From IMG/VR virus record IMGVR_UViG_3300015157_000014, positions 1-14,250 of that record: a DNA stretch of 14,250 nt; one strand, 5' to 3'. Positions 91 to 5,416 of this stretch are shown piece after piece. This DNA comes from a virus. Lineage: Duplodnaviria > Heunggongvirae > Uroviricota > Caudoviricetes. The position numbers were made by a program, and so were the translations under genes. Within the stretch, counting starts at the first letter, position 1. Each line of letters opens with the position of its first letter. Under the pieces are notes generated by a model. That model was not told where the DNA came from and did no database searches. It saw only the letters and a program-made list of their open reading frames with translations.

Positions 91-113
91 AAAAAAACCC
101 AGCCGAAGCTGGG
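91..113 (-). terminator. Rho-independent terminator downstream of ant
   Basis: On the minus strand, 6-bp GC-rich stem (cccagc/gctggg, 98..113) with a UUCG loop, immediately followed by a 7-U run (91..97). Lies 19 nt after the ant stop. Confidence 0.6.
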
Positions 114-132
114 TCGTTGCGTTGGTTATCTG

Positions 133-1023
133 TCAGTAGTTATGTACTGAAGGAGGTAATTCTTTATTCTTAAGTCTCATCCATGCGGAAAGATTCTTTG
201 GTCCGTCTGGCTCATTGATATCAACATCTCGTGTGTGATTGATTAAAACGTCTCTCGCCATTCCGATAACATACGAGAATTCATGACCGTAGTCGTAGCA
301 TCTGCCTGAATAGTTCGATTGAATTTGTTTTAGCGCCGGATACAGTTCGCGGAATAATGCCTGTGAACGGTTGGCATAATCCCATAACCATACAAGGCTG
401 TTTGCTTCTTTTGCAGAAAGCTCGTTGGTTTTCTTCTCTTGTTTGCCGATGAATTCACCTTCAAGCACTACCCTGTGGATGTACTCTACGGCCAGCGGGA
501 TTTGTTCAATTGAAAGTTCATCAATGCTGTCAATACCAAAACGCTGATGAACCATATTGTATGCATCGTCATAGCGAAGTCCTTTCTTTCCTACCAGCAT
601 GTTTACTGCATCTCGTAGCGGTGTGCGTTCAGCTACTGAAGTTTTACCTCCAATAGCCTTCCTCTCTTGTGTGGCAGTAACCATTGCGTCATATGCACGG
701 ATAACCTTCAGCGCAAAGGCTGCGCTAATCCACATGGCGTAGGAGTAAACAAGCTCCTTGCACACGTAGGTTCCACCATATCGACCTTTCTTAGAAAGGA
801 CGGGATTCTTATTCTGCATATCCGCAGAATTAAAAATTTCATTAATCAATTCAATAGTTTCATTTCTACGCATGAAGAAAGCTGGCTGATGTTTTTCCTC
901 CTTTCCAGACGCTACATGAAGGTCATTAAGCGAGTAACGCCCCTCTGAATCCATATGAATCTTGACGTCAGAAATGATGATGCTATTAGTGCAATTTACA
1001 GTTGACTTTGCTAAGCTTGACAT
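133..1023 (-). CDS. ant: Antirepressor Ant-like protein (296 aa)
   Basis: Long ORF downstream of arc in the same orientation, close in size to P22 Ant (about 300 aa by recollection). GAGG Shine-Dalgarno about 9 nt upstream of the ATG. The N-terminal region looks like a phage antirepressor DNA-binding domain, but I did not verify the domain. Confidence 0.7.
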
Positions 1024-1055
1024 ATCAATAATACCTCGTAAGTTTTGTTGATACC

Positions 1056-1096
1056 GAAGCCCTGACTGTTACAGCAGTTGGGGCTTCAACGTTTTT
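1056..1096 (+). terminator. Plus-strand hairpin plus T-run; candidate terminator of a sar-like antisense RNA
   Basis: Extended stem 1056..1087 (gaagccc.../...gggcttc with inner actg/cagt pairing), then aacg and TTTTT (1092..1096) on the plus strand. The minus strand has no U-run after it, so it is orientation-specific. The T-run is 4 nt away from the stem, which weakens the call. Confidence 0.3.
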
Positions 1097-1355
1097 CCAC
1101 TTCATTTTGAATTTGCTTAAGTAGCATATTTGTCTCGTCAAGCCTCTTGTTAATACGGTCAAGGCTTTCTACTAAATCGTTATGTGCATGTGATACTTCG
1201 TAATTTGAGACTGATTTTTTTTCCTCTATCGTCTTTGTCAATCGTTCCCCTGATTGATACATATTGATTAACGATGTAAAAATCACGAGCAAGCAAACTA
1301 CAATGATTGCGCCAGACAAAAATTGTAAAGAACGATCAAGCAATGACACCTTCAT
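1086..1355 (-). CDS. Hypothetical small membrane protein (89 aa): one N-terminal transmembrane helix plus C-terminal coiled coil, inserted between arc and ant
   Basis: ATG overlaps the arc TGA stop (ATGA overlap at 1352..1355). GAGAGGGG Shine-Dalgarno-like sequence upstream within the arc 3' end. Hydrophobic stretch AIIVVCLLVIFTSLI followed by a heptad-like charged segment. Visibly AT-rich. Confidence 0.55.
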   Translation of the reverse strand: MKVSLLDRSLQFLSGAIIVVCLLVIFTSLINMYQSGERLTKTIEEKKSVSNYEVSHAHNDLVESLDRINKRLDETNMLLKQIQNEVEKR

Positions 1356-1510
1356 ACCGTAATCCCCTCTCTCTTCAGGCTGTCCATCACTCGCTTGTAA
1401 ATCTCAGAGTTAACAGATCGCCCGTTCTCTTCCGCCACCTTACGCACCAAATCCAATACTTCTTTAGGCCACCGCAAATTGAACTGCGGCATTTTGCTCA
1501 TTCCTTTCAT
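1352..1510 (-). CDS. arc: Arc repressor (ribbon-helix-helix), 52 aa
   Basis: Translation MKGMSKMPQFNLRWPKEVLDLVRKVAEENGRSVNSEIYKRVMDSLKREGITV is near-identical to P22 Arc as I recall it (MKGMSKMPQFNLRWPREVLDLVRKVAEENGRSVNSEIY...). GAGGTGA Shine-Dalgarno 4-5 nt upstream. The start is at the internal Met of the 73-aa track ORF. Confidence 0.9.
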   Translation of the reverse strand: MKGMSKMPQFNLRWPKEVLDLVRKVAEENGRSVNSEIYKRVMDSLKREGITV

Positions 1511-1524
1511 ATTCACCTCACAAT

Positions 1525-1545
1525 ATAGGTCCACCGTGGACCTAT
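1525..1545. promoter_or_regulatory. Mnt operator (O_mnt), perfect 21-bp palindrome
   Basis: ataggtccaccgtggacctat is a perfect inverted repeat about a central base. Its core aggtccac-c-gtggacct matches the P22 mnt operator as I recall it. It overlaps the predicted Pant transcription start. Confidence 0.85.
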
Positions 1546-1573
1546 TGAGAATATAGTAGAGTGCTTCTATCAT
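1545..1573 (+). promoter_or_regulatory. Pmnt promoter (drives mnt and probably the downstream cassette)
   Basis: Plus strand reads TTGAGA (1545..1550), a 17-nt spacer, then TATCAT (1568..1573). It overlaps Pant divergently and is covered by O_arc. GGGGTGA Shine-Dalgarno precedes the mnt ATG. Confidence 0.6.
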
Positions 1574-1578
1574 GTCAA
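1550..1578 (-). promoter_or_regulatory. Pant promoter (drives arc-orf89-ant)
   Basis: Minus strand reads TTGACA (1573..1578), a 17-nt spacer, then TATATT (1550..1555). Predicted start near 1542 falls inside O_mnt. Confidence 0.7.
1553..1573. promoter_or_regulatory. Arc operator (O_arc)
   Basis: atagtagagtgcttctatcat is the reverse complement of ATGATAGAAGCACTCTACTAT, the P22 arc operator as I recall it, with TAGA/TCTA half-sites. It sits between the -35 and -10 of Pant and over the Pmnt -10. Confidence 0.8.
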
Positions 1579-1600
1579 TACACTAACTTGGGGTGATGGC

Positions 1601-1849
1601 ATGGCTAGAGACGATCCGCACTTTAACTTCCGTATGCCTTTGGAAGTAAGAGAAAAATTGAAATTAAGAGCAGAGGCTAACGGAAGGTCAATGAACTCTG
1701 AGTTATTACAAATCGTTCAGGATGCTCTCTCAAAGCCATCACCGATTGCAGGCTATCGAGACGAAGCTGAACGCTTGGCTGATCAGCAAGCAGAAATTGT
1801 TAAGAAGATGGTGTTTGAAACCCTGAAAAAAATGTACGAGACCAGATAG
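1601..1849 (+). CDS. mnt: Mnt repressor (ribbon-helix-helix; maintenance of lysogeny, represses Pant), 82 aa
   Basis: Translation MARDDPHFNFRMPLEVREKLKLRAEANGRSMNSELLQIVQDALSKPSP... is near-identical to P22 Mnt as I recall it. Divergent from arc across the operator region. Confidence 0.9.
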   Translation: MARDDPHFNFRMPLEVREKLKLRAEANGRSMNSELLQIVQDALSKPSPIAGYRDEAERLADQQAEIVKKMVFETLKKMYETR

Positions 1850-1891
1850 GTCAATGTTTGTTCGTTGATATAAAATAACAAGGTATACATT

Positions 1892-2491
1892 GTGATTGAG
1901 ATAGGCGTTATGGCCATCCTGAATCAAGAGCCAGGAAAAATTGAAAACGTTTTTTCTGACATATCAACATCTATCGAGCGTTCAATTTCAGACTTTGATC
2001 GCAGTCATAGCGGCTCTTTGTCTAAAAAACAGGCTTCTGAAGCTCTTAGCAAGATCTACTGCGTTATGTCACCTGTAGAGGAAGTTTGCAAAAAGTACAT
2101 TACATTCATTGACATATTAAGTAATGGTACGGAAGAAGATATTTCCTCACTTGATATTCAACATGACGATGTAGATATGTTGAACGATCAAATATCTAAG
2201 CTTGATTATGGTATCGCGAAACTGTTGTATACCTTCTTCATCGCTGAGAACAGCGATGCGTGGAAGCCCCATATGTCAACTCTTACAACAATGAAAAACC
2301 ACTCAATAAATACTTTTATAGAATACAAAAGGCTAACTATGGGGCTTGTGACGCTAGCAATGCAGCACATACCACTATCATATGCTGAACCTGAAGAGTT
2401 CACTGAAGAAGAGTTGGCTTCATTCAAGAAATCAGTTGAAGATTCACATAAAAGATTTGGCATGGAAGCACCAAAATGGAAAACCGCATAA
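1892..2491 (+). CDS. Hypothetical protein (199 aa; 193 aa if the ATG at 1910 is used), acidic, no transmembrane segment; first gene of the accessory cassette
   Basis: Long ORF in visibly AT-rich DNA, directly downstream of mnt with no terminator seen in between. Its 3' end overlaps the next ORF by 16 nt. Start is ambiguous (GTG at 1892 or ATG at 1910). No recognisable motif. Confidence 0.55.
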   Translation: MIEIGVMAILNQEPGKIENVFSDISTSIERSISDFDRSHSGSLSKKQASEALSKIYCVMSPVEEVCKKYITFIDILSNGTEEDISSLDIQHDDVDMLNDQISKLDYGIAKLLYTFFIAENSDAWKPHMSTLTTMKNHSINTFIEYKRLTMGLVTLAMQHIPLSYAEPEEFTEEELASFKKSVEDSHKRFGMEAPKWKTA

Positions 2492-2895
2492 GCATTGTTG
2501 TAGATGCAGCGGCTGGACCATTAGAACAATACTTTGCGAAGGCTCTTGCAAACTACAAAAACAGAGGCACCGTTTCAGCTTATCTTGGTAAGATTGGTGG
2601 GTTTGAGAGAAACCATCACGCCGTCTTATCGGGAATTTACAAGTCGCACATCAGGATCCCTGGAGTAGATGATCCTTGGTTAAAAACAACGCCAATACAT
2701 CGTAGAGTTAGCGATAACTTTTTGATATTTGCGGTACACAACACATATCCAATTCATATCCAGATCATTGCTATCATTAAACCTGATGGTCATGAGAAGG
2801 TAAAAAAACTATTGCCAGCCATCATTGATATAACTGAAAAAAGATTCCAATCTCTAAATGAGAGGGAGCTTAACTCGTTGATTTCATACAAATAA
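2476..2895 (+). CDS. Hypothetical basic protein (139 aa) with a possible RelE/YafQ-like toxin-fold signature
   Basis: ATG preceded by GGAAG about 7 nt upstream; overlaps the 199-aa ORF by 16 nt. The segment GIYKSH...DDPW...HRR...FLIFAVH...IQIIAIIKPDGHE loosely resembles the YafQ/RelE C-terminal pattern (YKDH...PDWILIY...LLRFERTGTH). This rests on weak motif similarity only. Confidence 0.55.
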   Translation: MENRISIVVDAAAGPLEQYFAKALANYKNRGTVSAYLGKIGGFERNHHAVLSGIYKSHIRIPGVDDPWLKTTPIHRRVSDNFLIFAVHNTYPIHIQIIAIIKPDGHEKVKKLLPAIIDITEKRFQSLNERELNSLISYK

Positions 2896-2917: not shown

Positions 2918-3247
2918 GTGCTTGAATGGTTTCTGTTGGCTGCATTAGTCGTTTCTGGTTTGGTGTATGAGTATCGAATGCACTCTCTAACAAAAAAAAT
3001 AGGAATTCTAGAAAACGAATATTGTGCTCTCAAATCCTCACTGGAACGTGATCAAGGAGACTTAAAAATCTCTCTGTCTAGCATTGAGCGTTCTATAGAG
3101 AGCCTAGAGGATAAGGTTGATCGTATAAAGAATGAGGATATTCATGATATTAAGGACGACATATCCTTCTTAAAATCTTGGTTGAAAAATGTTGGGAAAA
3201 TTGCCACATCAACACGAGATAAGCTCAATCCATCCATGGATGACTAA
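2918..3247 (+). CDS. Hypothetical small membrane protein (109 aa): N-terminal transmembrane helix plus coiled coil
   Basis: GTG start with strong AAGGGGG Shine-Dalgarno 5 nt upstream. Hydrophobic N-terminus WFLLAALVVSGLV, then a heptad-like charged region. Its stop abuts the gp16 stop on the opposite strand (TAATTA). Confidence 0.55.
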   Translation: MLEWFLLAALVVSGLVYEYRMHSLTKKIGILENEYCALKSSLERDQGDLKISLSSIERSIESLEDKVDRIKNEDIHDIKDDISFLKSWLKNVGKIATSTRDKLNPSMDD

Positions 3248-5416
3248 TTACTCCTGTGCCATTCCGCTTAGCGATGCCACAATTCCAGCCCTTGCTAAAC
3301 GCTGGAACTCTTCGTTTCCTAGTGCCTCGCGTATTGCTTTTACGGCGGCCTTATTTGCCATAAATCTGCGTTCCGCCGCCGCTAATGCACCATCACTTGC
3401 CCCAACCTTAACTGCCTTTGTTGCCTCTTGAACAGCCTTTTCAATAGCGTAACGACCGCTTCTAGTTGCGGATAATTTCGCTATCGCTCCTTTTGCCATT
3501 GCATCAATTGCTCCACCTGCAGCGCCACCCGCTATTGCTCCAATAACGCCTCCTCCAGAGAACCCTGCGATAGTGCCAGTAGTTCTAAAAGCGCCAGACA
3601 ATGCGCTCTCTAAAACTGGATGAAGGCCATTCTCAAGAGTGCTAATGGCTGGCATAGATCGCCCTGTCTGTTCAACATATCGAAGTGGCTTTGTTGCTGC
3701 TCTTGCAAGTTCTCCGTATGAACTTGTAATCCTGCCAAGTTCTGGAGAATATCGACTAATTGCCTTCACGTTTTGTGGGGTAAGAATAGTCGCGATATGC
3801 TTAATTCCAGCCTCTTCAGACTTACCTCCGCGTACCCCTTGCGACATTGCATCTTGTAATATTGATGCAATTGCTGGCGCGCGTTCCGACTCAGGTAGGG
3901 CGCTTATTATTTTATGGAACTGACCTGTTCCACTTTTTGCTGAGCCCTGTAACGCCTTAGAGCCATTATTTACCAACTGATCAGTTGCAAGGTCTCTGCC
4001 AAACGCTGCTTCAGCCTGTTCTTGTGCTGTAAATCTTGCCTTTGACAGGTCATTAGCTTTTTGCCAGTCATCAAGAAAACCGCCATTTTGAGCCATTATG
4101 CGCATATCTTCCGTTGCTGCATCACGAAGCTCAGCCATGCGCCTTGCCGTATTTGCCTCACCAGACCTTATATACTTCTGCTCTGCGTCAGCAAGTTTAC
4201 TTCGCCATGCCTTCATGGCATCAAACGTGATTCCTTTTTTACCAGTTTTAGCATAAGCAGATGCGAATTGTTTCATCTCAGGAGTTAGCGGCATGCCAGC
4301 CAAAATATCACCCTGAATTGTAGCGTTCAGGTTTGACATTCTGGCCTTTGCGTCAGGCATCGTGGAGCGGACGCTATCCCATGCGGCCTTTTCTGAATTT
4401 TTCATTTTATCAATGCTTGCCAAAACCCTCTGTTTTATGGCTGCACTTTTTTCTGATGCAGTTCCTGCTTCAGCCCCAAACTCATCCAATGCTGAGTTAA
4501 ATTTCGACTCTATTTCACTGAATGCTTTGGTGTGTGCATCCTGTGTAATTCCGGGCTTTGACGCCAGAATCCCCTCCGCCTGAGCAAGACCACGACTACC
4601 TGATCTCATGCCAGGAGTTAATGCGTTGATATCTATTCCAGCAGTATCTGCTGCTTTTGCTATTTCGTCTGACACATTAGCTGACTGTCTGGCAATAATC
4701 TCTCTTCCTGTACCAGACTTTGCCATTTTCGAAACATCAGCAGCGGAATTTATTGCCCCGCCACCAAGAACTTGAGGTGATTTAGAGGTTAAGATCCTTC
4801 CAGCCCCAGAAAGTATCCCCTGAGCACCAATATTGATACCACCGTTAATGGCAGCATTTTGTGCAAAGTCGCCCTCCTGATTTGCAGCATCAGCAAGAGA
4901 ACCTGCAATCATGTTTCCTGCGGAACCGATATCTCCAGCGAGCTTTGCTGGCGCTCCAGCAGCTTTTGCCGCTGTGCCAATTGGCAGGAGATACCCACCA
5001 ATTGTTTCACCGGCTTGCGCATAAGGGTCTGTCGGTCGATCGACTGGACGATAGACATCATCCAAAACCTTTGGGCCACCAAGCCCCTGGCTGATTGCAT
5101 TAATCAGACTTGCGCCACCCTGCAATACGTCAAATGGTATGTTTACCAGACCACGACCAGCCTGTTCTGCAATTTGCCCTGCACTTTGACCACCTGTGAG
5201 CCAATCACCAGCTTGTTGCATCAATGATGGTTCTTCTTTCTGCTGCTGAGGTGGAGGGTATGCTGCATAAAACTGATCTCTTGCTTCAGCCCATTTGTCA
5301 CCAGCCTTAGGGGCAACAACCTCATCAAAATATTGCGCTTGAGCCTGTGCTTTCTGTTCTTCAGTTAACGCCTGATACTGTGGAGAAGCGATAACATCTT
5401 TCCATGCTTTAGCCAT
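3248..5416 (-). CDS. Ejection (internal virion) protein, gp16-like, 722 aa
   Basis: Last gene of the minus-strand late operon, at the position of P22 gene 16. Ala/Gly/Gln-rich composition typical of podovirus ejection proteins. Start overlaps the gp20 stop (TAATG). Confidence 0.8.

What the first reader, a model, noticed from the sequence alone, without database searches (positions are those of the whole stretch)
1525..1578. Intact immI switch: P22-type Mnt and Arc operators embedded in overlapping divergent promoters
A perfect 21-bp palindrome (ataggtccaccgtggacctat) and a TAGA/TCTA-type arc operator sit in the 90-bp arc-mnt intergenic region. Pant (TTGACA, 17 nt, TATATT on the minus strand) and Pmnt (TTGAGA, 17 nt, TATCAT on the plus strand) overlap back to back, with O_arc covering the core of both and O_mnt covering the Pant start site. 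The N-terminal DNA-contacting strands of Arc (QFNLRWP) and Mnt (HFNFRMP) are conserved relative to P22. This element should therefore share immI specificity with P22, and the switch is probably functional, making it a live regulator of the accessory genes on both sides.
Basis: partly seen in the sequence, partly recalled or inferred. Interest (0 to 1): 0.45.

Follow-up and report, generated by a model that had tools for sequence, protein, structure and literature searches.

The report
P22-type immI repressor switch in prophage
This is an intact copy of the textbook phage P22 "immunity I" switch, in which two small repressors, Arc and Mnt, bind operators inside two back-to-back promoters; it sits in a P22-like E. 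coli prophage, is correctly described, and is biologically ordinary.

Summary
Window 1511..1600 is the 90-bp arc-mnt intergenic region.

- **Operators and promoters:** It holds a 10+1+10 palindrome (1525..1545), a 21-bp Arc operator (1553..1573) and two overlapping divergent promoters.
- **Identity to P22:** The Arc operator and all four promoter hexamers are identical to P22. So is the 17-bp Mnt core (1527..1543). The whole 90 bp differs from P22 at two bases (1526 and 1592), neither in a recognition position.
- **Proteins:** Arc residues 1-15 and Mnt residues 1-13, which hold the DNA-recognition strands, are identical to P22.
- **Selection:** Across 76 related loci the intergenic region is far less variable than silent codon positions. 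Against P22 there are 2/90 intergenic differences versus 47/127 at third positions (p = 5.5e-11).
- **Prevalence:** The switch occurs in 181 of 5426 complete E. coli genomes, and its 51-bp core in 91 IMG/VR contigs.

The locus is a mosaic. A membrane-protein gene (orf89) is inserted between arc and ant. Ant has a KilA-N N-terminal half. A YafO-family toxin pair follows mnt with no terminator.

Control of orf89 by Pant is well supported. Control of the mnt-side cargo is plausible, but a conserved possible internal promoter competes with it.

Verdict: correct, already known, low interest.

The parts
96..115 (-). Terminator-like hairpin plus T-run downstream of ant. Its position corresponds to the terminator annotated after ant in P22.
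   Evidence: 8-bp stem, 5 G-C pairs, T-run. P22 annotation.
133..1023 (-). ant, the antirepressor gene (296 aa). It is a mosaic: a KilA-N N-terminal half and a P22_AR_C C-terminal half. Only residues 127-296 match P22 Ant, at 85% identity.
   Evidence: Pfam KilA-N 1.8e-19 and P22_AR_C 6.4e-30. BLASTP against P22 Ant.
1009..1017 (+). Candidate Psar extended -10 (TGCTAAGCT). It aligns with P22's TGCTATACT. This is inferred, and the match to consensus is weaker than in P22.
   Evidence: Alignment. P22 Psar annotation. The consensus scan did not call it.
1025..1091 (+). sar antisense RNA, antisense to the ant ribosome-binding region. It has two hairpins; the 3' one is the terminator and overlaps the end of orf89.
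   Evidence: Rfam RF00262, 63.6 bits against a gathering score of 43. Fold of -28 kcal/mol, z = -5.58. Terminator call at 1056..1087.
1086..1355 (-). orf89, an 89-aa predicted single-pass membrane protein (TM 12-30) with a coiled-coil tail. It is inserted between arc and sar/ant and is absent from P22. Its ATG overlaps the arc stop codon (ATGA).
   Evidence: PHROG 27312, unknown function. Present in 10 of the fetched loci.
1352..1510 (-). arc, a 52-aa ribbon-helix-helix repressor. Residues 1-15 are identical to P22 Arc.
   Evidence: Pfam PF03869 1.7e-27. PDB 1arq/1par 91.9 bits. Alignment.
1525..1545 (.). O_mnt, the Mnt operator, a 10+1+10 palindrome. The conserved core is 1527..1543, with half-sites GTGGACC at 1536..1542 and its reverse complement at 1528..1534. 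It lies just downstream of the Pant -10, over the expected Pant start near 1543.
   Evidence: Half-site consensus from PMC2726951. AF527608 'mnt operator' feature.
1545..1573 (+). Pmnt: -35 TTGAGA (1545..1550), 17-nt spacer, -10 TATCAT (1568..1573).
   Evidence: 10/12. Same positions annotated in P22 records.
1550..1578 (-). Pant: -35 TTGACA (1578..1573), 17-nt spacer, -10 TATATT (1555..1550).
   Evidence: 11/12. Same positions annotated in P22 records.
1553..1573 (.). O_arc, the 21-bp Arc operator, with TAGA (1557..1560) and TCTA (1566..1569) boxes 5 bp apart around G1563. It fills the Pant spacer and covers the Pmnt -10.
   Evidence: 21/21 identical to P22. Operator layout from PMC2724298. 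AF527608 'arc operator' feature.
1601..1849 (+). mnt, an 82-aa ribbon-helix-helix repressor with a C-terminal tetramerisation domain. Residues 1-13 are identical to P22 Mnt.
   Evidence: Pfam PF03869 1.1e-27 and PF11423 5.5e-15. PDB 1mnt 139.5 bits and 1qey 34.6 bits. Alignment.
1866..1874 (+). TGATATAAA, a TGnTATAA(A/T) motif conserved upstream of orf199 in four phage lineages. It may be an extended -10 internal promoter. This is inferred.
1892..2895 (+). Cargo pair downstream of mnt. orf199 (1892..2491) is acidic and is the putative antitoxin. A YafO-family toxin gene (2476..2895) is basic and overlaps it by 16 nt. No terminator separates the pair from mnt.
   Evidence: Pfam YafO_toxin 1.1e-11. 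pI values 4.9 and 9.6.. Synteny.
2918..3247 (+). hkcB-like 109-aa gene of unknown function. It abuts the stop codon of the convergent gp16-like DNA-transfer gene (3248..5416, minus strand).
   Evidence: PHROG 5962..

Best explanation
Window 1511..1600 is a functional P22-type immI switch, in a P22-like (CUS-3-like) E. coli prophage. The steps below follow the published P22 mechanism and are inferred for this copy.

1. **Two competing promoters.** Pant faces the minus strand and Pmnt faces the plus strand. Their hexamers interdigitate, so RNA polymerase can use only one at a time.
2. **After infection.** The stronger Pant fires and transcribes arc, orf89 and ant. Arc accumulates and binds as a dimer of dimers to O_arc (1553..1573).
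3. **In the lysogen.** An Mnt tetramer binds O_mnt (core 1527..1543) over the Pant start. This keeps ant off and frees Pmnt, so mnt is expressed. Because no terminator follows mnt, the downstream orf199/YafO pair and the hkcB-like gene are probably expressed as well.
4. **Second brake.** The sar RNA (1025..1091) pairs with the ant ribosome-binding region.

Both operators and both recognition strands are identical to P22. Mnt and Arc of this element should therefore act on P22's operators, and P22's proteins on these.

Shown here: sequence identity, domain content, promoter geometry and purifying selection. Inferred here: binding, start sites and repression.
For: - **Identity to P22.** The 121-bp alignment to P22 has three differences: T1526, which lies outside the 17-bp core; G1592, in the mnt Shine-Dalgarno region; and a silent change in mnt codon 5. 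O_arc is 21/21 identical and the O_mnt core is 17/17 identical.
- **Promoters.** The hexamers match the consensus scan and the P22 annotations.
- **Proteins.** Arc and Mnt N-termini are identical to P22. The domains are Arc/RHH and Repressor_Mnt. Both match PDB entries 1arq/1par, 1mnt and 1qey.
- **Published contacts.** Arc contacts DNA through Gln9, Asn11 and Arg13 on a 21-bp TAGA operator (PMC12645479). Arc represses both Pant and Pmnt (PMC2724298). The best Mnt half-site is GTGGACC, and Mnt binds as a tetramer (PMC2726951).
- **Selection.** Over 76 loci and 42 haplotypes, diversity (pi) is 0.028 in the intergenic region. At third codon positions it is 0.148 (arc) and 0.305 (mnt). The minimum, 0.005-0.009, falls at 1544..1588. 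Against P22 there are 2/90 intergenic differences versus 47/127 at third positions, p = 5.5e-11.
- **Natural specificity variants.** The Mnt strand and its operator change together. K6/T8 goes with AAGGTCAC-C-GTGACCTT in L097. Q6/K8 goes with GTGGTTC in L096 and L189. The window groups with P22: H6/N8 with GTGGACC.
- **Other parts.** sar is recognised by Rfam and folds well. The 99.4%-identical APEC prophage has integrase, a LexA-type repressor, cro, cII, replication, lysis and virion genes.
Against: - Nothing was measured. Binding, transcription start sites and repression are all inferred from P22.
- The Psar -10 is weaker than in P22 (TAAGCT against TATACT).
- The Ant N-terminal half is not homologous to P22 Ant. 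The output of the switch, meaning which repressors Ant inactivates, may therefore differ.
- Arc and Mnt carry conservative substitutions outside the recognition strands. In Arc these are R16K, Q39K, E43D, F45L, K47R and a different C-terminal tail. In Mnt they are M14L, F22L and several changes in the C-terminal coiled coil.
- Low diversity extends about 50 nt into both coding regions, including silent sites. Part of the conservation could therefore reflect recombination history rather than selection on the operators.
Confidence: 0.88

Rival explanations
1. The switch is an inert relic. The prophage is defective, and the operators and promoters persist only because the insertion is recent.
For: The closest complete genome shows three pseudogenes in the early-left region of the prophage. 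No expression data are available.
Against: - All immI genes and the virion genes in the window are intact ORFs.
- The intergenic region is about 5-10 times less diverse than silent sites across 42 haplotypes from Salmonella and E. coli phages. That pattern needs long-term selection.
- The same core is present in cultured, viable phages such as P22, epsilon34 and UPF_BP1.
Confidence: 0.05
2. The region has P22 architecture but a different immunity specificity, so it is heteroimmune to P22 immI.
For: - Other specificity classes exist in nature with the same layout (L097, L096, L189).
- The Ant N-terminal domain and the Arc and Mnt C-termini differ from P22.
Against: - Operator recognition positions and recognition strands are identical to P22.
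- From my own knowledge, not read here: the N-terminal residues determine Arc and Mnt specificity (Knight and Sauer 1989). That paper appears only in the reference list seen.
- Heteroimmunity at the Mnt/Arc-operator level is therefore unlikely. Only the target range of Ant could differ.
Confidence: 0.05
3. On the mnt side, the switch is chiefly the control region of a three-part toxin-antitoxin operon (Mnt, Orf199, YafO-like toxin). This would resemble omega-epsilon-zeta, where a ribbon-helix-helix protein regulates an antitoxin-toxin pair that has no DNA-binding domain of its own.
For: - The pair sits 42-45 nt downstream of mnt in four phage lineages that span three Mnt/operator types. In the most distant lineage, Orf199 is only 29% identical.
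- No terminator lies between mnt and orf199.
- Orf199 has no recognisable DNA-binding domain.
- Mnt weakly matches the FitA-like antitoxin RHH family.
Against: - The same pair stands alone, without any mnt, at a fixed chromosomal site in Pectobacterium.
- Most immI loci carry no such pair; 62 of the fetched loci have the plain P22-like ant-arc-mnt layout.
- A conserved TGnTATAA(A/T) motif upstream of orf199 may be its own promoter.
- The only Mnt operator in the window sits at the Pant start.
Confidence: 0.2

Closest known systems
Bacteriophage P22 immI region (mnt, Pmnt/Pant with O_mnt and O_arc, arc, sar, ant)
   Same: - Gene order and orientation.
- The 90-bp intergenic length.
- All four promoter hexamers.
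- The 21-bp O_arc and the 17-bp O_mnt core.
- Arc residues 1-15 and Mnt residues 1-13.
- The sar terminator hairpin.
- The location between the gp16-type ejection gene and the tailspike.
   Different: - T instead of C at 1526, which makes the palindrome 21 bp long.
- G instead of A at 1592, in the mnt Shine-Dalgarno region.
- orf89 is inserted between arc and sar/ant.
- Ant has a KilA-N N-terminal half.
- The Psar -10 is weaker.
- There is no t_mnt terminator, orf59a or sieA. An orf199/YafO pair and an hkcB-like gene stand there instead.
'ant moron' of P22-like phages (Casjens and co-workers, PMC2629481), including phage epsilon34 and the CUS-3, UTI-1 and APEC-1 prophages
   Same: - It is a variable insertion in the late operon between the ejection genes and the tailspike.
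- The mnt-orf199-YafO block is 99% identical to CUS-3.
- The hkcB-like gene occupies the same position as its homologue in CUS-3 (49% identical there) and as gene 14 of epsilon34.
   Different: - CUS-3 has two mnt paralogues, no P22-type O_mnt or O_arc, and a different region upstream of mnt.
- The window joins a CUS-3-type right arm to a P22/Emek-type left arm at the conserved switch.
Ribbon-helix-helix repressor/operator systems in general (MetJ, CopG, omega of omega-epsilon-zeta)
   Same: - Beta-strand recognition in the major groove.
- A dimer of dimers on inverted short boxes that overlap a promoter (PMC2724298).
   Different: - This element is a direct sequence-level orthologue of Arc and Mnt, not merely a fold relative.
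- Two different RHH proteins share a single 90-bp control region.

Membership tests
P22 immI switch | Divergently transcribed arc and mnt genes encoding ribbon-helix-helix repressors, with a tetramerisation domain in Mnt | tested here: met
   Pfam Arc domain in both proteins and Repressor_Mnt in Mnt. PDB matches to 1arq, 1mnt and 1qey.
P22 immI switch | Overlapping back-to-back Pant and Pmnt promoters in a ~90-bp intergenic region | tested here: met
   Consensus scan gives 11/12 and 10/12, both with 17-nt spacers. The positions match the P22 annotations.
P22 immI switch | 21-bp Arc operator with TAGA/TCTA boxes 5 bp apart, lying between the Pant hexamers | tested here: met
   21/21 identical to P22 at 1553..1573. 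Layout as described in PMC2724298.
P22 immI switch | Symmetric Mnt operator with GTGGACC half-sites at the Pant start | tested here: met
   The 17-bp core at 1527..1543 is identical to P22. Half-site consensus from PMC2726951. The start site itself is inferred from the position of the -10.
P22 immI switch | Recognition residues: Arc Gln9/Asn11/Arg13, and Mnt residues 1-13 including His6/Asn8/Arg10 | tested here: met
   Alignments. Arc contacts from PMC12645479. The Mnt contact residues are from my own knowledge of the Sauer-laboratory literature, not read here.
P22 immI switch | ant (antirepressor) downstream of arc in the Pant operon | tested here: met
   ant lies at 133..1023 on the same strand, after arc and orf89. 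Only its C-terminal 170 residues are P22-like.
P22 immI switch | sar antisense RNA across the ant ribosome-binding site | tested here: met
   Rfam RF00262, 63.6 bits against a gathering score of 43, at 1025..1091. Stable two-hairpin fold. Its promoter is only a weak match.
P22 immI switch | Arc- and Mnt-dependent repression of Pant, activation of Pmnt by Mnt, and cross-immunity with P22 | not testable with these tools
   This needs reporter fusions, gel shifts or superinfection tests.
Type II toxin-antitoxin, YafO family (cargo downstream of mnt) | YafO_toxin domain, with an upstream overlapping gene for an acidic partner | tested here: met
   PF13957, 45.1 bits against a cut-off of 25. 16-nt overlap, pI values 4.9 and 9.6. 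The pair is conserved as a unit in phages and in Pectobacterium chromosomes.
Type II toxin-antitoxin, YafO family (cargo downstream of mnt) | The partner is a YafN-type (Phd/YefM) antitoxin, with toxicity and neutralisation demonstrated | tested here: not met
   Orf199 matches no Pfam or NCBIfam family. Toxicity and neutralisation cannot be tested here.

The most novel reading that the evidence does not exclude
The mnt arm of immI-type switches may be a preferred docking site for an Orf199/YafO-family toxin pair. The pair sits 42-45 nt after mnt in four phage lineages that use three different Mnt/operator specificities, and no terminator intervenes in this window. Expression of the toxin pair in the lysogen would then be coupled to Mnt occupancy of O_mnt, because Mnt would free Pmnt and transcription would read through. 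In that case Mnt acts as an omega-like third component. It would tie prophage maintenance to a toxin module, for example for abortive infection or prophage addiction.
Probability: 0.25. Interest if true: 0.45.

Novelty: already known. Interest (0 to 1): 0.15.

Why it matters
There is little new biology here. The element is the P22 immI switch, one of the best-studied repressor-operator systems.

It is useful as an annotation. PGAP labels both genes only as 'Arc family DNA-binding protein', and labels no operators, promoters or sar RNA.

Three modest points come out of the comparison:

1. The 90-bp control region is held almost invariant while the flanking genes diverge by 10-20%. It also acts as the joint around which the left (arc-ant) and right (mnt-cargo) arms reassort.
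2. Natural specificity variants exist in which the Mnt strand residues and the operator half-sites change together.
3. A YafO-family toxin pair repeatedly sits directly behind mnt, and that association can be tested.

Tried and rejected
- **Genome-contig scan.** The comparison therefore rests on IMG/VR and the phage collection.
- **Whole-window inverted-repeat call.** The call with a tight distance limit listed neither O_mnt nor the sar hairpin. I replaced it with my own enumeration.
- **Man and Stormo 2001.** PMC55749 is not held in the library. The Mnt half-site was taken from PMC2726951 instead.
- **Defence-system and NCBIfam scans.** Scans of orf89, orf199, the YafO-like gene and the hkcB-like gene gave only sub-threshold hits.
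- **orf89 against the hkcB-like protein.** They are not related.
- **A terminator or stable hairpin between mnt and orf199.** None was found.
- **A classical -35/-10 promoter for orf199.** None was called. Only the TGn-type motif was seen by eye.
- **The 73-aa ORF at 1352..1573.** This is arc's reading frame extended upstream across the promoter region. I rejected it as a gene because its ATG lies upstream of the expected Pant start.
- **Plasmid origin.** There was no match in PLSDB.
- **PDB 9pio_G.** I did not follow up this 'Arc family' hit. From my own knowledge I took it to be a tagged Arc used as a protease substrate.

Full report
**What is in the sequence**

The region reads, in window coordinates, as follows:

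| Feature | Coordinates | Strand |
|---|---|---|
| ant | 133..1023 | - |
| sar RNA | 1025..1091 | + |
| orf89 | 1086..1355 | - |
| arc | 1352..1510 | - |
| intergenic region (90 bp) | 1511..1600 | |
| mnt | 1601..1849 | + |
| orf199 | 1892..2491 | + |
| YafO-family toxin gene | 2476..2895 | + |
| hkcB-like gene | 2918..3247 | + |
| gp16-like DNA-transfer gene (convergent) | 3248..5416 | - |

The elements inside the intergenic region are these:

- **Mnt palindrome.** ATAGGTCCAC-C-GTGGACCTAT lies at 1525..1545, with 10-nt arms and 100% complementarity.
- **Arc operator.** It lies at 1553..1573 and is a zero-mismatch match to the 21-bp P22 sequence ATGATAGAAGCACTCTACTAT.
- **Pant.** TTGACA, 17 nt, TATATT, at 1578..1550 on the minus strand, 11/12 matches to consensus.
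- **Pmnt.** TTGAGA, 17 nt, TATCAT, at 1545..1573 on the plus strand, 10/12 matches.

The palindrome is the longest perfect short-loop inverted repeat in the window. Symmetry alone is not overwhelming, however. Arms of 10 nt or more arose in 12 of 200 shuffles. The significance comes from what the palindrome matches.

**Comparison with P22**

The window is 99.4% identical over 3.4 kb to a prophage of E. coli O2:K1:H5 APEC E19035. It is 96.5% identical over 61% of that stretch to phage CUS-3.

arc, the intergenic region and mnt align to P22 at 87.7% identity overall. The 121-bp stretch spanning the intergenic region differs from P22 at only three bases:

- T1526 (C in P22) lies outside the 17-bp Mnt core.
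- G1592 (A in P22) lies in the mnt Shine-Dalgarno region.
- The third is a silent change in mnt codon 5.

The promoter and operator features deposited with the P22 records map onto the same window bases. This holds for X01916 with an offset of +259 and for AF527608 with an offset of -1629.

- **Arc** is identical to P22 Arc through residue 15, which includes Gln9, Asn11 and Arg13.
- **Mnt** is identical to P22 Mnt through residue 13.

Both proteins hit the Arc RHH family, and Mnt also hits the Repressor_Mnt tetramerisation domain. They match the solved P22 structures 1arq/1par, 1mnt and 1qey.

The literature read here gives the following:

- The Arc contacts and the 21-bp TAGA operator (PMC12645479).
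- The layout of two TAGA boxes 5 bp apart, and Arc repression of both Pant and Pmnt (PMC2724298).
- GTGGACC as the highest-affinity Mnt half-site, bound by a tetramer (PMC2726951).

Both half-sites in the window are GTGGACC.

**Evidence of constraint**

I collected 80 IMG/VR loci that encode Mnt relatives, plus P22, epsilon34 and the APEC locus. Of these, 76 are P22-type and give 42 distinct haplotypes of arc codons 1-49, the intergenic region and mnt codons 1-78.

| Region | Nucleotide diversity (pi) |
|---|---|
| Intergenic, 90 bp | 0.028 |
| arc third codon positions | 0.148 |
| mnt third codon positions | 0.305 |
| Minimum, at 1544..1588 (interdigitated promoters and O_arc) | 0.005-0.009 |

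Window against P22 gives 2/90 intergenic differences versus 47/127 at third positions (Fisher p = 5.5e-11).

The sites that do vary are informative:

- The unpaired centre of O_mnt (1535) shows all four bases.
- The outer palindrome positions 1524-1527 vary.
- Positions inside the half-sites and the TAGA boxes change only in single haplotypes.

The functional operator is therefore the inner 15-17 bp. The 'perfect 21-bp' symmetry is a feature of this allele, not a conserved requirement.

The 131-bp switch occurs in 181 of 5426 complete E. coli genomes. It is always chromosomal and is never found on plasmids. An exact 51-bp core occurs in 91 IMG/VR contigs.

**Specificity classes**

Other loci keep the same architecture but change the Mnt strand and the operator together:

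| Locus | Mnt N-terminal strand | Operator |
|---|---|---|
| Window and P22 | DPHFNFRMP | GTGGACC half-sites |
| L097 (Salmonella) | EPKFTFRMP | AAGGTCAC-C-GTGACCTT |
| L096 and L189 | DPQFKLRLP | GTGGTTC-type half-sites |

A Pectobacterium locus (L006) keeps the P22-type Mnt strand. It also keeps the right O_mnt half and all promoter hexamers, but has an altered O_arc centre.

These contrasts support the claim that the element shares Mnt and Arc operator specificity with P22.

**How it most likely works**

This is inferred from the P22 mechanism and from the geometry shown here.

1. After infection, Pant transcribes arc, orf89 and ant.
2. Arc then binds O_arc inside both promoters and damps them.
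3. In the lysogen, Mnt bound at O_mnt covers the expected Pant start near 1543. This keeps ant silent and leaves Pmnt usable.
4. sar pairs with the ant ribosome-binding region as a second brake.
5. Late transcripts coming from the gp16 side must also cross this region to reach the tailspike gene, as discussed for P22 in PMC2629481.

That Mnt activates Pmnt indirectly, through promoter competition, is from my own knowledge of Vershon et al. 1987. I did not read that paper here.

**Differences from P22**

*orf89.*
- It is inserted between arc and the sar terminator.
- Its ATG overlaps the arc stop codon (ATGA), and it has its own GAGGGG ribosome-binding site.
- It encodes a strongly hydrophobic helix at residues 12-30 followed by a coiled-coil tail.
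- It belongs to an unknown-function PHROG and is present in 10 of the fetched loci.
- Other lineages carry different small ORFs at the same junction.
- Its placement makes it a Pant-controlled gene that is repressed by both Mnt and Arc.

*Ant.*
- It is a mosaic. Only residues 127-296 match P22 Ant, at 85% identity.
- The N-terminal half is a KilA-N domain.
- As a result, the Psar region inside the 5' end of ant is not homologous to P22. The exception is an island that keeps TGCTAAGCT aligned with P22's TGCTATACT.
- The sar 5' hairpin has a different sequence but still folds.

*Downstream of mnt.*
- There is no terminator or stable hairpin, whereas P22 and epsilon34 have one.
- An acidic Orf199 and a basic YafO-family protein, with genes overlapping by 16 nt, follow 42 nt after mnt.

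**The mnt-side cargo**

Orf199 homologues are few. In four phage lineages the pair lies 42-45 nt after an mnt gene. In Pectobacterium chromosomes it stands alone between an ABC-transporter operon and gcvP.

All four phage spacers share TGnTATAA(A/T) a few bases upstream of the CAAGG ribosome-binding site (window 1866..1874). This could be an extended -10 promoter that belongs to the pair itself.

Read-through from Pmnt is therefore plausible but not established.

**Mosaic structure**

- The window's mnt allele travels with orf199 and the YafO gene, as in CUS-3.
- Its arc, orf89 and ant arm travels with other mnt alleles in loci L019-L026.
- CUS-3 itself lacks the P22-type operators.
- The low-diversity valley extends about 50 nt into both genes.

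The operators and the recognition strands therefore behave as one conserved cassette. The two arms reassort around it.

**Verdict**

The element is the known P22 immI switch in a P22-like E. coli prophage, and the 'ant moron' literature (PMC2629481) has already described this kind of region.

Interest is low. The only lead with some novelty is the repeated association of a YafO-family toxin pair with the mnt arm.

Noticed in passing
window 1892..2895; loci L093-L097, L189-L191: An acidic 199-aa protein and a YafO-family toxin have genes overlapping by 16 nt. The pair lies 42-45 nt after mnt in four phage lineages that use three Mnt/operator types. The same pair stands alone at a fixed chromosomal site in Pectobacterium. 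Orf199 matches no known antitoxin family.
   Followed up: partly
window 1866..1874: A TGATATAAA motif (TGnTATAA[A/T]) is conserved upstream of orf199 in all four phage lineages, although the rest of the spacer differs. It may be an extended -10 internal promoter. It would, however, place the transcription start on top of the ribosome-binding site.
   Followed up: partly
window 1086..1355: orf89 encodes a single-pass membrane and coiled-coil protein. Its start overlaps the arc stop codon (ATGA), and it is inserted between arc and the sar terminator. Other lineages carry unrelated small ORFs at this same junction, such as a Cys-rich 63-aa ORF in L097.
   Followed up: partly
window 133..1023: Ant is a domain mosaic. 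It has a KilA-N N-terminal half, and only its C-terminal 170 residues are homologous to P22 Ant. Its range of target repressors may therefore differ from P22 Ant.
   Followed up: partly
window 1454..1648: The low-diversity valley extends about 50 nt into both arc and mnt, silent positions included. The operators and the two recognition strands therefore travel as one cassette, and the left and right arms of the locus reassort around it.
   Followed up: partly
L097 3617..3706; L096 1071..1159; L189 2620..2706: These are natural immI variants with the same promoter layout but changed Mnt strand residues (K6/T8 or Q6/K8) and matching changes in the operator half-sites. They form a ready-made set of protein-DNA co-variation for ribbon-helix-helix recognition.
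   Followed up: partly
L005 (CUS-3) about 3823, minus strand: tblastn finds an Arc-like reading frame, 45% identical, in the CUS-3 'bsq2' region, which the phage record leaves unannotated. PGAP lists three Arc-family proteins in the equivalent UTI89-type prophages.
   Followed up: no
window 3245..3250: The stop codons of the hkcB-like gene and the convergent gp16-like gene abut, leaving no room for a terminator. Pmnt-side and late-operon transcription must therefore collide head-on.
   Followed up: no
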